Assembly (NCBI GenBank): GCA_043778225.1
Contig: JAYWGM010000028.1
Location: 1-64,000, forward strand
From: Deinococcales bacterium
GTDB taxonomy: Bacteria; Deinococcota; Deinococci; Deinococcales; JAAFIG01
Length of the DNA: 64,000 nt
Direction: 5' to 3'
This document shows positions 45,001 to 48,000 of this stretch, piece by piece. Positions within the stretch are counted from its first letter, which is position 1. Each line of letters starts with the position of its first letter. The position numbers were made by a program.

Positions 45001-48000
45001 CCGCCGCGAGTCACGACTGCAAATTGCAAGGCAGCAGGGGCAACTTCGACAAAAAATTTATTCAGCACAACTTTATTTCGCACTTGTGCCAAACGCATTC
45101 CAGCCTCGATCATCAAGCCATGTTCGATTTTGAATAGCTCAATTTGCATGGCAGCAAAACCTTTCCAGTACAAAACTTGGCTGTTTGGCGCAACCACCTC
45201 AAGAATTTCATCGCCTCGAGAAACCAGTGCCACTTCAAGTGCGCCCGTTTGCACCACCGCAAAGTGCTTGTTGACCACATCGGAACGCCGCTCGAGTAAA
45301 AAATTGGTCAGTTCGTGTTCAAATCGAGTCTCGAGGGCAAAACGCTGGACAGCATAACCTGTGCCATAAACTGTATTCGCACCAGCCTCGAGAATCCGAA
45401 CAAAACGCCCATGACGGGTCAGAATACCTTTTTCCGTGTCTTTAATCGCAAAATTTTGAATCATATAAAACCTCTGGGGTGAAAGCGACCATGCCCGATA
45501 GCGACCCAGCCCGTCAGGTGCATCTTTAGGGTCAAGAAGGTGCGTGCTTATGGTCAAGAAAGGGTTAAAAGGTTAAAAGGTTAAAAGTTAAGGGCAGAAC
45601 AGTTACTTTTTCCCTTTTTCTTCTTGCCAACCTTATCTCGAGTATTTCGAGTTTCGCATGAGCTTTTGGGCGCGTGTTCACTGGCTTGAAGGCGGCTCGA
45701 GCCGACGTTCACTCGAGGGTGGCGGTTCAGGTGGGCGAATCGGTGCTTTGTGCCGATAGGAGACTCGAGGCTTTTGGCTGTACACCCTTAAAGGGCAAGC
45801 AACTCGAGACAAAGCTGGTGGTGCTTGGGTCAACGATTTTGCTTATCGTTTGGTGATTTATGGGAGTCGAACCCATTACCGTCAGTTTATAAGCGACCCT
45901 GCCCGCGAGGTGCGTCTTAGGGTCAAGAAGACTGATGCTCTAACCAGTTGAGCTAAAACCTTGGTAAAAGATGCAGGATTTGAACCTGCTTGCCCGTTTG
46001 GGCGCTCGAACAGTCGTTTGTGCGACTGCAACCCGAGTGCGTTTATCCAGTATCCGCCAATCTTTTGTTTGATGAAAGGAATCGAACCTTTGACCTCTCG
46101 AGTGGTCAGTCAAATGACCAGCCAAGCGCTCTACCCCTGAGCCACATCAATTTATCTTTGTGCGATATGCAAGGTAAGCAGGGCTTATTTGCATCAGCGA
46201 GGCTATGCAAACCTCTGACCACGGCACGTGATGCAAAAAGTGTACTCGAGAAGTCAAAAAAGTCCATGACTGATTTGGCTTACGCCAATGTGCCAATCGT
46301 CACGTTTAGCAAGCTGGTTTTTTCACGTCTGACAGAGGTAGTATACCGTATACTCGAGCCATGCTTGAACGATTTTTTAGCTTGTTGGCTTGCAGCATAG
46401 GCTTGGTGGCTTGTCAGGACAAACCAATTTTAATTGTCAATCCGCCAGACAACAGCAGCCCAGCCTTACTTTGGTCAAATGCTGCCACATGGGGCGGGAG
46501 TGTACCAAGCGACAACAGCAGTGTGGTCATTCCAGACGGCAAACGCATTGTTTTAGATGTCAATGCCAATGTCAAAAACATTACCGTACTTGGAACGCTC
46601 GAGTTTAAGGACACCAACCTCAATCTTCAAACCGATTATATTGCTGTCCATGGTGCAATGCGCTTAGGCAGTGCGATTAACCCATTTGCCTCCAGAGCCA
46701 CCATTACCTTAAAAGGCAGCAATACCGAAGACATCATGAAGATGGGGTCTCGAGGTATTTTGGTGATGGGCGGCGAATTGTCGGTCTACGGCACAGCCCC
46801 CAAAGTTATCTGGACTAAATTAGCCGACCACAGCGCGGCTGGAGCTTTAAGTCTGAGTTTACTCGAGAATACAGCTTGGAAAACTGGCGACCAGATTGTG
46901 ATTGCACCGACCGATTTTTACAACGATGGAAATTTCCAAAAATCCCCAGAGACCGAAATGCTCGAGGTACAAAGTGCCAACGGCTCGAGTATCGGCTTAA
47001 AAAATGCTTTAAGTGGGGCGCGTTGGGGTAAATTGCAGTATGCCACCGAAAGCGGCATGAGTTTGAGTCAAGGCAGTATTACGCTGCCAAGTACATCGGC
47101 TCGAGACACGGGTGGCACTACCATTCCAACAGTGCTGGATGAACGGGCAGAAGTTGGCAATGTCAGCCGCAACATTGTGATAGAAGCTGCCGACGACAAC
47201 CTCTGGAAAGAACAAGGATTTGGCGCTCAGGTCATGATTATGGGCGAAACTGCCAAGACCCATCTCGAGGGCATCGAACTACGGCGGGTTGGGCAAGCTG
47301 GCAAATTTGGGCGTTATCCGGTGCATTTTCATAATTTAAGTTACGACAGCACGGGCAAGGAATTAGCCGATGCAAACGCCACCCTCAAAAACTCGAGCAT
47401 TTGGAATTCAAGTCAACGTTGTGTGGTGATTCATGGCTCGAACGGTGTTAAAGTGCAAAATAATATTTGCTACAACATCAAAGGTCATGCAATTTTTCTC
47501 GAGGATGCAGTCGAGCGGCGCAACTTAATCGAAAATAATCTGGTATTGCGGGTACGCGAGCCTAAAAAAGCCCAAGCACTTTTGAAGCACGAAATTGGCG
47601 AAGCCTTTGGCGGTACGAGTTCTGGCTTTTGGATTGTTAATCCTGACAACACGCTGCGTGGCAATGTCGCCGCCGATGTTGTTGGGCATGGGTACTGGTT
47701 GGCTTTTCCAAAGACCACGCTTGGAGTCAACAACAACGTCAAGCTCAATCCGTACGCTGACCAAGGAAAAATCATAGGCGCTCGCCCTGAAAGAATGCCG
47801 TTTGGGATTTTTGAAAACAACGTGGCGCACAGCATCCAAGACAATGGTGTGTTTATAGATGCCGCTCCAACCGATGCTCGAGACGCAAGTGGCAACCAAA
47901 TTGGCGAAACCGAAGGCGCAAAGTATGTCCCCATGCAGGGAGGTAAAGACTGGGATTACGATTTTAGCAAGTGGGAACGCTTTACTTTGGCTAGAGTCAC

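What a model noticed while it worked through the whole genome (the two positions that open the first line are those of the whole stretch)
45855..46151. Three abutting tRNA-like genes with conserved bodies but species-specific anticodons
Upstream of the stomatin-like gene g00907 lie three head-to-tail tRNA-shaped genes without spacers; the unit is kept at this place in at least three genera of the family, its D, T and acceptor parts are 81-92% identical on average within the genus, yet the anticodon triplet differs from species to species at each of the three, and here all three anticodon loops carry insertions (one is a copy of the genome's 39-nt hairpin repeat). I read them as tRNA bodies kept for a job other than faithful decoding: bait or decoy for anticodon-cutting toxins and phage or defence tRNases, or deliberately mis-decoding tRNAs (the middle one is a Leu/Ser-type long-arm tRNA that carries Phe anticodons in three [...]
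Evidence so far: Rfam tRNA hits 39.9 and 44.6 bits at C28:45855-45960 and 46067-46151 (-), ARAGORN 4-base 'ggtc' anticodon; in intron mode three modules c[45852-45962],[45962-46066],[46067-46151] with 37-, 22- and 13-nt loop inserts. Syntenic full-length BLAST matches in 5 of 7 other genomes of the genus, with g00907 (74-79% aa identity) downstream. ARAGORN on them: 3' module TCT, TGT, TGA, CGT, TCT (here TAT plus insert); middle module (7-bp acceptor, A73, CCA, long variable arm) GAA, GAA, CAA, CAA, two with a 16-22-nt insert; 5' module TAC, TAC, TGC, three expanded. The loop frame C32-U33-NNN-A37-A38 is kept where no insert is present; body identity outside the loops averages 0.92, 0.90, 0.81; one compensa [...]
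(Added by a program. Inside this text positions count along the whole contig: contig position 1 is position 1 of the stretch shown here. "Call 12" and the like, gene names such as g00115 and contig names such as C1 are that model's own, and its searches are not shown. The text may have been shortened before it was handed on; [...] marks where a part breaks off. The agent that wrote the report below was given it as the finding of a first reader that could run no searches.)

Follow-up and report, generated by a model that had tools for sequence, protein, structure and literature searches.

The report
Band-7-associated tRNA-mimic RNA, three modules
The three tRNA-shaped genes are parts of one expressed non-coding RNA that always sits in front of a stomatin-like (Band-7) gene, a class of tRNA mimic predicted in 2016 as a partner of RNA-repair systems but, in the papers I could search, not tested at the bench, and here its anticodons are visibly free to drift.

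Summary
Three abutting tRNA-like cloverleaves lie at 45852-46151 (minus strand). Their stems and elbows are kept by compensatory changes. Their anticodon loops differ between species or are replaced by hairpins or a repeat.

They are not a decaying tRNA operon or mis-decoding tRNAs. They form the core of one RNA of about 0.4-0.45 kb: a conserved two-hairpin leader, three tRNA mimics and a 3' anticodon-arm-like hairpin.

This RNA lies upstream of a soluble SPFH/Band-7 'slipin' gene:
- in 14 of 19 genomes of the family;
- in 7 of 8 loci from two other Deinococcales families;
- in Burkholderia stagnalis, where the operon continues into RtcB and RlaP.

[quoted passage not shown] I could not read that paper. 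I saw the class only as quoted in Wang et al. 2018, who call it experimentally unvalidated.

This scan met the same class twice before on other DNA (e1-981577, e1-5140065).

What is added here:
- metatranscriptome contigs that span the whole unit;
- module-3 anticodons that are the fastest-changing sites of the module in this genus but fixed as TGT in two sister genera;
- no linkage to RtcB or RlaP in Deinococcota;
- a partner protein whose predicted fold resembles the major vault protein.

Verdict: a new member of a known but untested kind.

The parts
46239..46244 (-). -10-like promoter hexamer TACACT, inferred
   Evidence: A TAC-N-N-T hexamer sits at the same place at the start of the conserved region in other genera: TACTCT in g5, TACTTT in g34, and TACTAT/TACCAT with TTGTCA/TTGCTA 17 nt upstream in G237/G223 (read). 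The 454-nt RNA-library contig of run X7 reaches about 46227, a few bases downstream of it. The tool's sigma-70 scan found 0 sites by its own criteria, so this part is inference.
46162..46232 (-). 5' leader of the RNA: hairpin P1 (46199-46215), hairpin P2 (46167-46194, two tiers), then AUCGC
   Evidence: P1 and P2 are 95% paired in 20 Deinococcota sequences, with 4 pairs changed on both sides; slid controls give 32-57%. Model R1, built from these leaders, scores 48.1 bits here and finds the Burkholderia leader at 27.1 bits, E 4e-05. nhmmer finds one strong hit in the whole genome, here, at E 1.2e-10.
46067..46151 (-). tRNA mimic 1: 6-bp acceptor stem, normal D and T arms, anticodon loop replaced by a 6-bp hairpin (20 nt)
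   Evidence: Rfam tRNA 44.6 bits. Parse. Covariation in 13 sequences: 90.4% paired, 10 pairs with double changes. Outside this genus the loop is 4-7 nt, mostly 5-6.
45962..46066 (-). tRNA mimic 2: tRNA-Leu-like type II body, perfect 7-bp A/U-rich acceptor stem, A73, CCA, long variable arm; anticodon loop replaced by a 23-nt hairpin
   Evidence: ARAGORN intron mode; parse. 92.5% paired with 9 double-change pairs in 13 sequences. No Rfam tRNA hit in this window. Orthologues score 32-49 bits.
45852..45962 (-). tRNA mimic 3: 5-bp acceptor stem (1:72 and 2:71 unpaired), canonical D, anticodon and T stems, anticodon loop split by a repeat
   Evidence: Rfam tRNA 39.9 bits. 92.9% paired with 7 double-change pairs in 14 sequences. 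U8, A14, G18, G19, T54-T55-C56 and A58 are invariant.
45891..45927 (-). 37-nt copy of the dispersed hairpin repeat inside the anticodon loop of mimic 3
   Evidence: Relatives lack it; RNA contigs of relatives join 45890 to 45928. There are 12 other copies in the genome and matches in 18 of 41 related genomes. A 144-nt RNA-library contig of run X4 covers 45853-45957 with the insert in place, with 3 other letters.
45832..45850 (-). 3' hairpin shaped like an anticodon arm (6-bp stem, 7-nt loop)
   Evidence: A 4-6-bp stem with a 7-nt loop follows the last full mimic in every lineage read. In G213 it is followed by a run of T, like a terminator.
43950..45464 (-). Soluble SPFH/Band-7 'slipin' gene (504 aa), the conserved neighbour
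   Evidence: Pfam Band_7 3.7e-26. No hydrophobic span: the highest 19-residue Kyte-Doolittle mean is 1.48. 38.8% identity over 99% of its length to the Burkholderia Band-7 protein that precedes RtcB and RlaP. The predicted fold is four beta repeats, an SPFH domain and a long helix. Stomatin/prohibitin chains give Z 14-17 on residues about 255-485. Major vault protein gives Z 10.4-12.3 and is the only kind of match that also covers the N-terminal repeats.

Best explanation
The three tRNA-shaped genes are modules of one non-coding RNA of roughly 400-450 nt. It has a 5' leader with two hairpins, three L-shaped tRNA mimics set head to tail, and a 3' anticodon-arm-like hairpin. [quoted passage not shown]

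The RNA is transcribed from its own promoter just upstream of a soluble Band-7/SPFH (slipin) gene. Selection keeps the tRNA fold: the stems, the D/T-loop elbow and the frame of the anticodon loop. It does not keep the anticodon triplet, a full acceptor end or a CCA tail. So the modules are not aminoacylated decoders.

The most likely mode of action is an RNA partner or scaffold of the Band-7 oligomer. In that role it would present tRNA-like surfaces to tRNA-handling or RNA-repair enzymes, or to tRNA-targeting nucleases. This would parallel Y RNA with Ro60.

Shown: the fold and its covariation, the synteny and co-occurrence with the Band-7 gene, homology to an RtcB/RlaP-linked operon, and presence in RNA libraries. 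Inferred: the promoter, binding to the Band-7 protein, and any role in RNA damage.
For: 1. **Fold.** All three modules are 90-93% paired, with 7-10 double-change pairs each; slid controls give 24-51%. The tertiary-contact nucleotides of mimic 3 are invariant. 31 of 39 modules in 13 other loci reach the Rfam tRNA threshold, at 32-69 bits.
2. **Non-decoding.** See the loop table. Outside the family module 1 has loops of 4-5 nt. Canonical tRNA-Thr(UGU) is present in 18 of 19 family genomes at 91-100% identity. No module is a close copy of any of the genome's 68 ARAGORN tRNAs.
3. **Selection.** G003 and G004 have identical bodies in modules 2 and 3 (51/51 each). Their neighbouring gene differs at 25% of third codon positions, and both anticodons differ.
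4. **Partner gene.** The RNA and the slipin gene occur together in 14 of 19 family genomes. The other 5 have neither by these searches. In the order, 22 of 363 genomes have the slipin. Of the 8 loci outside the family, 6 have 2-3 tRNA-like genes 400-680 nt upstream on the same strand, 1 (G218) has the leader and two T arms, and 1 (a 35%-identical paralogue) has nothing.
5. **Class.** In Burkholderia stagnalis the order is a sigma-54-like promoter, the leader (found by a model built only from Deinococcota; 27.1 bits, E 4e-05), a tRNA-like module (Rfam 42.4 bits), a 530-aa Band_7 protein, RtcB and RlaP. Wang et al. 2018 describe exactly this pairing as b7a-tRNA, citing Burroughs and Aravind 2016 (Discussion passage read).
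6. **Expression.** Three of four RNA runs laid carry contigs on the unit. Run X7 has a 454-nt contig at depth 85.8 in a run of 111 million letters. It spans all three modules plus the leader and 115 nt downstream. By my arithmetic a 4-Mb genome at that depth would need 344 million letters, so DNA carry-over cannot explain it. Run X4 has module 3 with its insert.
Against: - In this genome RtcB lies on another contig (C80). RlaP was not found; the genome is 89% complete. In 5 other Deinococcota genomes RtcB is also unlinked. The repair context therefore rests on other phyla.
- No binding data exist for the RNA and the protein.
- Contigs cannot show RNA ends or processing. The RNA could be only the 5' part of the slipin mRNA.
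- In genera g4 and g5 the module-3 anticodon is TGT in 7 of 7 species. Some lineages may therefore still use that anticodon.
- Module 2 here keeps a perfect acceptor stem, A73 and CCA, which hints at aminoacylation.
- I could not read the 2016 paper (searches found it not held). The defining features of b7a-tRNA are taken from one secondary passage and from my memory of the abstract.
Confidence: 0.72

Rival explanations
1. Decoy or competitive inhibitor. The mimics soak up, or report, anticodon nucleases and other tRNA-cutting toxins. The triplets change by lineage to match the local threats. This is the first reader's idea, and it is a more specific mechanism within the same class.
For: Module 3 keeps a canonical 7-nt loop with C/U32, U33 and A37 in 13 of 14 family species while the triplet varies: TCT, TGT, CGT, TGA, TAG. 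The anticodon sites are the fastest-changing sites of module 3 in the genus, at 0.52 differences per site against 0.00 for the four flanking loop sites. The class sits with RNA-repair genes elsewhere. Hughes et al. [quoted passage not shown]
Against: A divergence of 0.52 per site rests on 3 sites. It is about what third codon positions of the neighbouring gene show (0.13-0.51), so relaxed constraint explains it. Many loops are not anticodon-like at all: 4-6 nt, hairpins, or a repeat insert. TGT is fixed in genera g4 and g5. PADLOC finds nothing for the slipin.
Confidence: 0.2
2. Cis-acting leader. The tRNA-like modules are part of the 5' untranslated region of the slipin mRNA. They would serve as RNase P/Z processing or stabilising signals, like the tRNA-like 't-elements' of plant mitochondria (recalled from memory).
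For: The RNA is always on the same strand, 390-680 nt upstream of the gene. No terminator-like site was found on that strand between module 3 and the gene in the window; the only minus-strand site reported is the T arm of module 2. In Burkholderia and E. coli only one promoter-like site, of sigma-54 type, is evident, and it lies upstream of the RNA.
Against: The parts that RNase P and RNase Z read, the acceptor ends, are the least conserved. The anticodon and D stems, which those enzymes do not need, are 98-100% paired with covariation. The abundant X7 contig ends 115 nt after module 3, before the gene. In G213 the 3' hairpin is followed by a run of T.
Confidence: 0.2
3. Aminoacyl carriers outside translation. 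At least module 2 (A73, CCA, Leu-type body) is charged by a synthetase that ignores the anticodon. It would then donate the amino acid to a non-ribosomal reaction, or be tagged as tmRNA is.
For: Module 2 in this genus has a perfect 7-bp acceptor stem. A73 and CCA are present in 5 of 7 species. Module 1 in 4 of 7 units outside the family has G3:U70 (all four, the alanine identity pair) with A73 in 3 (G215, G213, G223; G237 has G73), and the tail ACCA in those same 3. That synthetases for Leu, Ala and Ser ignore the anticodon is established knowledge, recalled from memory.
Against: In genus g5 module 2 has a mismatched acceptor stem, no CCA, no U8 and mostly no long arm. G001 and G006 lack the CCA. 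No transferase gene is linked. The window's own module 1 has neither G3:U70 nor a 1:72 pair.
Confidence: 0.1
4. Decaying, redundant tRNA operon (pseudogenes) drifting neutrally. This is the 'dull' reading.
For: The anticodons of module 3 in this genus are each one or two changes from TGT. A canonical tRNA-Thr(UGU) exists elsewhere. All three loops are disrupted in this window.
Against: The bodies are 81-95% identical within the genus, and 67-75% identical to genus g5, where the flanking gene is 50% identical in protein and third positions are near saturation. There are 26 pairs with compensatory changes. The unit is kept with the same neighbour in three families and in a betaproteobacterium. 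It is abundant in RNA libraries.
Confidence: 0.03
5. Working tRNAs that mis-decode on purpose, for example a Leu-type body with Phe anticodons.
For: GAA (2 species) and AAA (2 species) sit on a tRNA-Leu-like body. Deliberately mistranslating tRNAs are known in Streptomyces (recalled from memory, not checked here).
Against: The loop is lost or expanded in 6 of 14 species and in this window. The acceptor stem is A/U-only. There is no matching extra synthetase nearby. In the other families the same position carries unrelated loops.
Confidence: 0.03

Closest known systems
[quoted passage not shown] The paper is not held; I saw the class only as quoted in the Discussion of Wang et al. 2018, bioRxiv 10.1101/312249, and otherwise recall the abstract.
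   Same: A predicted tRNA-like non-coding RNA encoded next to a Band-7/SPFH gene. The Band-7 protein here is 38.8% identical over 99% of its length to one followed by RtcB and RlaP. The leader of that operon is found by a model built from the Deinococcota RNAs.
   Different: Here and in 5 other Deinococcota genomes no RtcB is adjacent, and RlaP was not found in this genome. There are three tandem mimics plus a conserved leader. Whether the 2016 paper describes tandem modules or the leader I could not check.
YrlA-type Y RNA with Ro60/Rsr (Chen et al. 2014, abstract seen; Wang et al. 2018, passage read)
   Same: A non-coding RNA with a tRNA-like domain, encoded beside a scaffold protein and linked to RNA repair or decay. 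It is not used in decoding.
   Different: Rfam YrlA scores only 21.7 bits against a threshold of 69 and has no hit in the genome. There is no Ro-binding stem. The genome's Ro60 gene lies elsewhere, on contig C19. Here the whole cloverleaf, including the anticodon stem, is kept, three times over.
Vault particle: major vault protein with vault RNAs (solved structures matched; the biology is recalled from memory)
   Same: The partner protein's predicted fold is tandem beta repeats, an SPFH-like domain and a long helix. Major vault protein is the only kind of PDB match that also covers the repeats (Z 10.4-12.3, model residues 4, 68 or 141 through 465-502). Both pair with small structured RNAs.
   Different: Identity is 12-16% and the TM-score 0.30-0.34. 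No cage has been shown for this protein. Vault RNAs are not tRNA-shaped. Common descent was not tested here.
tRNA-Other, the pseudo-tRNA of Bacillus cereus (Rogers et al. 2012, PLoS One; abstract seen)
   Same: A chromosomal tRNA-like RNA that does not work in translation yet has a cellular role.
   Different: It is a single gene beside a genomic island, with no Band-7 partner, and it was tested by deletion. No sequence relation was examined.

Membership tests
b7a-tRNA (Band-7-associated tRNA-like RNA) | RNA with a tRNA-like fold | tested here: met
   Rfam tRNA 44.6 and 39.9 bits. Three cloverleaves are 90-93% paired with covariation.
b7a-tRNA (Band-7-associated tRNA-like RNA) | Encoded next to a Band-7/SPFH gene | tested here: met
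   The Band_7 gene lies 387 nt downstream on the same strand. The two co-occur in 14 of 19 family genomes, and the other 5 have neither. 7 of 8 loci outside the family carry the RNA or parts of it.
b7a-tRNA (Band-7-associated tRNA-like RNA) | Adjacent to the RtcB ligase (as stated in Wang et al. 2018) and to the RlaP nucleotidyltransferase | tested here: not met
   RtcB is on contig C80. RlaP was not found in this 89%-complete genome. RtcB is unlinked in G214, G223, G237, G180 and G218. The feature is met in the homologous Burkholderia operon.
b7a-tRNA (Band-7-associated tRNA-like RNA) | Homology of RNA and protein to an RtcB-linked example | tested here: met
   The protein is 38.8% identical over 99% of its length. 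Leader model R1 hits L121:2022-2097 at 27.1 bits, E 4e-05. The E. coli slipin-RlaP island was not hit by R1 or nhmmer.
Canonical decoding tRNA | 7-nt anticodon loop with U33 and a conserved anticodon | tested here: not met
   All three loops in the window are disrupted, at 20, 23 and 44 nt. The triplets differ between species.
Canonical decoding tRNA | 7-bp acceptor stem with a 1:72 pair and a CCA end (canonical tRNA genes of this genome encode CCA) | tested here: not met
   Module 3 has 5 bp and no CCA. Module 1 has 6 bp here and 4 bp in the other species of the genus. Only module 2 meets the feature.
YrlA / Y RNA | Match to the Rfam model and adjacency to Ro60 | tested here: not met
   21.7 bits against a threshold of 69. 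No genome hit. Ro60 is on contig C19.
tRNA genes with introns | The insert is removed from the RNA | tested here: inconclusive
   An RNA-library contig (X4, 144 nt) keeps the 37-nt insert. The contigs that skip it differ elsewhere and come from relatives. Contigs cannot exclude a spliced minority.

The most novel reading that the evidence does not exclude
The soluble, vault-protein-like Band-7 protein and this three-headed tRNA mimic form a cage-like ribonucleoprotein, a bacterial counterpart of the vault. Its exposed anticodon loops would act as exchangeable baits that sense or absorb tRNA-cutting toxins. That would explain why the triplets turn over within a genus while the bodies stay fixed.
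Probability: 0.12. Interest if true: 0.85.

Novelty: new member of a known kind. Interest (0 to 1): 0.45.

Why it matters
- **Status of the class.** b7a-tRNA is a predicted partner RNA of a widespread protein family. The only paper in the held library that names it calls it experimentally unvalidated.
- **Natural-variation evidence.** This locus shows what the RNA needs: the L-shaped fold, the elbow and the loop frame. It also shows what it does not need: the triplet, a full acceptor end, or an adjacent ligase.
- **Expression.** Metatranscriptome contigs show that the RNA is made.
- **Annotation.** tRNA finders will report such modules as tRNAs with odd or shifting anticodons, or as pseudogenes.
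- **Testability.** Related Band-7 operons occur in Burkholderia, and a Band-7-RlaP island occurs in 1632 of 5426 complete E. coli genomes. The hypothesis can therefore be tested at the bench.

Tried and rejected
- **Pattern scans.** I scanned genome contigs and metagenome contigs for the junction of modules 2 and 3. Ten of the 11 genome loci were the MAGs already in hand and 1 was an ordinary tRNA cluster. None of the 11 metagenome loci held the unit. No new sequences were gained, and both scans are now spent.
- **Rfam.** In permissive mode on the window, on 20 related loci and on the Burkholderia and E. coli loci, no family besides tRNA came near its threshold.
- **E. coli.** The region upstream of its slipin looks alike by eye: a hairpin, GGCAC, GTGTTCCG and one T arm. 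It was hit neither by the leader model R1 nor by nhmmer, so I do not claim homology of that RNA.
- **Promoter.** The sigma-70 scan found 0 sites in 45300-46500. The -10 hexamer I give rests on conservation and on the end of the RNA contig.
- **Protein libraries.** PADLOC has no match for the slipin. NCBIfam gives only weak HflK/HflC domain matches.
- **RNA runs.** X17 laid nothing. Parts of the stretch without cover are not interpreted.
- **Literature.** The 2016 paper is not held under its PMC id, DOI or PubMed id. Searches for 'slipin' + 'tRNA-like' found 0 papers. 'SPFH' + 'tRNA-like' + 'bacteria' found 1, irrelevant. 'b7a-tRNA' found 1. 'RtcB' + 'Band 7' + 'tRNA' found 3, of which 1 was relevant. 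The E. coli protein accession found 0.
- **Rejected origin.** A recent duplication of a resident tRNA is ruled out. The best match to any of the genome's 68 tRNAs is 49-60 identical positions out of 71-86.
- **Not attempted.** Complex prediction, because the tool takes no RNA.
- **Paralogue.** G217's 35%-identical paralogue has no RNA upstream.
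Full report
**1. What is in the window**

On the minus strand, 45852-46151, lie three tRNA-like cloverleaves with no spacer between them. 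Rfam's tRNA model scores 44.6 bits (46067-46151) and 39.9 bits (45855-45960). The window's two ordinary tRNAs score 69.1 and 68.2 bits.

ARAGORN by default reports only a 'tRNA-???' with the 4-base anticodon ggtc. With introns allowed it reports three modules, with loop inserts of 37, 22 and 13 nt.

A position-by-position parse shows intact D, anticodon and T stems in all three. The differences are these:

| Module | Acceptor stem | Anticodon region |
|---|---|---|
| 1 | 6 bp | 20 nt, folded as a 6-bp hairpin |
| 2 | perfect 7 bp, A73, CCA, long variable arm (tRNA-Leu-like) | 23-nt hairpin |
| 3 | 5 bp (1:72 and 2:71 unpaired) | loop split by a 37-nt copy of a dispersed hairpin repeat |

The repeat has 12 other copies in this genome and matches in 18 of 41 related genomes.

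**2. Relatives and selection**

The genome is an uncultured Deinococcales MAG of 4.03 Mb and 48.7% G+C.

*Distribution.* The unit is present in 14 of 19 genomes of its family: genus g1 7 of 8, g4 1 of 1, g5 6 of 6, g2 0 of 2, g3 0 of 2. In 31 of 39 modules of 13 other loci the Rfam tRNA model scores 32-69 bits.

*Covariation on the cloverleaf I specified.*

| Module | Sequences | Cells paired | Pairs changed on both sides |
|---|---|---|---|
| 3 | 14 | 92.9% | 7 |
| 2 | 13 (G015 left out: its acceptor 3' strand is deleted) | 92.5% | 9 |
| 1 | 13 (G007 left out: its 5' half is lost) | 90.4% | 10 |

With the 3' strand slid by 1-3 columns only 24-51% of cells pair. D, anticodon and T stems are 88.5-100% paired (100% in 8 of 9 helices, 98.1% in module 1's anticodon stem, 88.5% in module 2's D stem). 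The acceptor stems are the weakest, at 74-86%. In module 3, U8, A14, G18, G19, T54-T55-C56 and A58 never vary.

*Identity.* Over 51 fixed positions the mean body identity within the genus is 0.81, 0.95 and 0.92 for modules 1-3. Against genus g5 it is 0.67-0.75. Over the same distances the neighbouring gene is 50% identical in protein, and 36-47% at third codon positions. The bodies are therefore under purifying selection.

*Comparison with real tRNAs.* They evolve faster than a real tRNA. The canonical tRNA-Thr(UGU) is 96% identical between the two genera and is present in 18 of 19 genomes. None of the modules is a close copy of a resident tRNA.

**3. The anticodon loops**

- **Module 3.** It keeps a 7-nt loop in 13 of 14 species. 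The triplet is TGT in all 7 species of genera g4 and g5. In this genus it reads TCT, TGT, CGT, TCT, TGA and TAG.
  - Within the genus the three anticodon sites differ at 0.52 per site.
  - The four flanking loop sites differ at 0.00, the variable loop at 0.29 and the D loop at 0.21.
  - Third codon positions of the neighbouring gene differ at 0.13-0.51.
  - The triplet is thus about as free as a silent site. With three sites I cannot tell relaxed constraint from diversifying selection.
  - G003 and G004 have identical bodies in modules 2 and 3 (51 of 51 each), yet both anticodons differ.
- **Module 2.** It reads CAA or GAA in this genus, CAA or AAA in g5 and TGA in g4. It is expanded, duplicated or collapsed in 5 species.
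- **Module 1.** Its loops are 5-7 nt in g4 and g5 and 4-5 nt in other families. It has probably never been a decoder.
- **CTCGAG.** Several anticodon stems contain this word, which earlier work on this genome found to be hyper-abundant (note e1-2303518). That pressure may help to reshape the loops.

**4. The modules are part of a larger RNA**

A region of about 80 nt upstream of module 1 is conserved. It holds two hairpins, P1 and P2, followed by a (G)UAYCGC box.

- In 20 Deinococcota sequences the shared pairs are 95% paired, with 4 pairs changed on both sides. Slid controls give 32-57%.
- A profile of the leader has one strong hit in the whole genome, here (E 1.2e-10).
- A TAC-N-N-T hexamer (TACACT, 46239-46244) precedes the leader in all lineages. 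In two Thermaceae-like genomes a good -35 box lies 17 nt upstream of it. The tool's promoter scan did not call it.
- After the last mimic, every lineage has a short hairpin with a 7-nt loop.

**5. Expression**

Nine RNA runs share a few words with the region. I laid four of them.

- **X7.** This run of 111 million letters has one 454-nt contig at depth 85.8. It comes from a relative that lacks the repeat insert. It covers 45854-46186, plus 41 nt upstream (to about 46227, just below the proposed -10 box) and 115 nt downstream.
- **Depth argument.** By my arithmetic, a 4-Mb genome at that depth would need 344 million letters. The contig therefore reflects abundant RNA, not DNA carry-over.
- **X6.** A 242-nt contig spans modules 3 and 2.
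- **X4.** Short contigs lie on modules 2 and 3. One of 144 nt carries the 37-nt insert. The contigs that skip the insert differ elsewhere and come from relatives.
- **X17.** Nothing was laid.
- **Limits.** Contigs cannot show ends, strand or processing.

**6. The neighbour is the key**

The gene 387 nt downstream (43950-45464, minus strand) encodes a 504-aa Band_7/SPFH protein. It has no hydrophobic span.

*Within the family.* The RNA and the gene occur together in 14 genomes. The other 5 have neither, by protein search, DNA search and the leader model. In one search only 150 of 1000-3000 candidates per genome were scored.

*Within the order.* 22 of 363 genomes carry the gene at E <= 1e-60. 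Of the 8 loci outside the family:
- 6 have two or three abutting tRNA-like genes 400-680 nt upstream on the same strand, with unrelated 'anticodons' (ACG, CAA, ATG, TGG, GAT, GTG, TCC, TGC, GAA, TGT);
- 1 (G218) has the leader and two T arms;
- 1, a 35%-identical paralogue, has nothing.

*Other phyla.* Homologues at about 40-45% identity exist in cyanobacteria and proteobacteria.
- **Burkholderia stagnalis.** The gene is 38.8% identical over 99% of its length. It is preceded by a sigma-54-like TGGCAC-N5-TCGCT, by the leader (found by model R1, built only from Deinococcota; 27.1 bits, E 4e-05), by an acceptor/T-arm minihelix and by a tRNA-like module (Rfam 42.4 bits). It is followed by RtcB and RlaP.
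- **E. coli.** A shorter slipin followed by RlaP lies between yjbD and lysC in 1632 of 5426 complete genomes. No RNA is annotated there. Its upstream region resembles the leader by eye, but neither R1 nor nhmmer hit it.

**7. What is known**

Wang et al. [quoted passage not shown] They add that its existence 'has not been validated experimentally'.

The 2016 paper is not held. From memory, its abstract names SPFH/Band-7 modules and 'a novel tRNA-like molecule' as possible scaffolding cofactors of RNA-repair systems, in parallel with Ro60 and Y RNAs.

The term b7a-tRNA occurs in one paper of the held library. My other searches found nothing on it.

Two earlier notes of this scan reached the same class on other DNA: a Flavobacteriaceae operon, and a 'Band-7 RNA' of about 530 nt with two mimics. 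The finding is therefore a member of a known, predicted class.

It departs from the description I could read in having no adjacent RtcB or RlaP. RtcB is on contig C80 and RlaP was not found. RtcB is also unlinked in 5 other Deinococcota genomes.

**8. How it most likely works**

*Shown.*
- One RNA is made from the region and is abundant in RNA libraries.
- Three L-shaped tRNA mimics are maintained by selection.
- The triplet, the acceptor tip and the CCA tail are not maintained.
- The RNA and the Band-7 gene are gained, kept and lost together.

*Inferred.* The RNA binds the Band-7 oligomer and offers tRNA-like surfaces to enzymes or toxins that handle tRNA, as Y RNA does for Ro60.

*The partner protein.* Its predicted structure has mean pLDDT 83.7. 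It shows four tandem beta repeats, an SPFH domain and a long helix.
- Stomatin, prohibitin and HflK/C chains match residues of about 255-485 at Z 14-17.
- Major vault protein matches at Z 10.4-12.3. It is the only kind of hit that also covers the N-terminal repeats.
- SPFH proteins in those structures form rings or cages, which suits a scaffold role. This is an analogy, not a result.

*Rivals.*
- The decoy reading stays open.
- The mis-decoding and pseudogene readings are contradicted by the loop losses and by the covariation.
- A purely cis-acting leader is not excluded.
- In g4 and g5 the fixed TGT warns that some lineages may still read that loop.

**9. Verdict**

It missed the Band-7 link. 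This is a new member of a known but experimentally untested kind. Its value lies in the natural-variation and expression evidence, and in pointing to tractable hosts.

Noticed in passing
G000 contig C19:7446-14171 (locus L082), outside the window: A Ro60 orthologue (597 aa, TROVE plus vWA_Ro60) lies directly downstream, on the same strand, of a 124-nt tRNA-like element (C19:9353-9476; Rfam tRNA 50.4 bits with an insert) and of an array of about 26 tRNA genes covering most amino acids. Several of the array's Leu tRNAs are only 73-78 nt long. The genome thus holds both scaffold and tRNA-like pairings, Ro60 and Band-7.
   Followed up: partly
Loci L114, L116, L117, L118 (genomes G215, G213, G223, G237): Module 1 of the Band-7 RNA in these four genomes has a 7-bp acceptor stem with G3:U70 in all four. 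A73 and the tail ACCA are present in three of them (G215, G213, G223; G237 has G73). It also has a 5-nt 'anticodon' loop. This is the alanine identity set, as in tmRNA. It is not present in the window's own module 1.
   Followed up: no
E. coli loci L122, L123: An island of slipin (375 aa), RlaP and, on the other strand, a zeta-toxin-family gene sits between yjbD and lysC in 1632 of 5426 complete E. coli genomes. A sigma-54-like TGGCACG-N4-TCGCA and a lone T-arm-like hairpin lie upstream. No RNA is annotated there.
   Followed up: partly
Window 43950-45464 (-): The slipin has no membrane span. Its predicted fold (four beta repeats, SPFH domain, long helix) matches major vault protein over the repeats as well, at Z 10.4-12.3.
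   Followed up: partly
Module alleles in G001, G003, G004, G005 (loci L032-L035): The variants of modules 1 and 3 do not follow the tree of the neighbouring gene. G001 and G003 are sisters, 94% identical in that gene, yet G001 shares its module-3 arm with G005 and G007, and G003 shares its arm with G004 and G000. This suggests exchange of alleles between species, or old polymorphism.
   Followed up: no
Window 45500-45539 and 45600-45850 (-): A second copy of the 39-nt repeat and several CTCGAG sites lie between the RNA and the slipin start. CTCGAG also forms part of the anticodon stems of modules 1 and 2 in several species.
   Followed up: no
G000 contig C80:47009-49219: The RtcB matches are split into three pieces within one 947-aa open frame, about twice the usual length. 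This would fit an intein or another insertion.
   Followed up: no
Window 13005-13166 (-): An ordinary tRNA-Val(GAC) and tRNA-Cys(GCA) pair, at 68-69 bits. I used them as the internal standard for a canonical tRNA score.
   Followed up: yes
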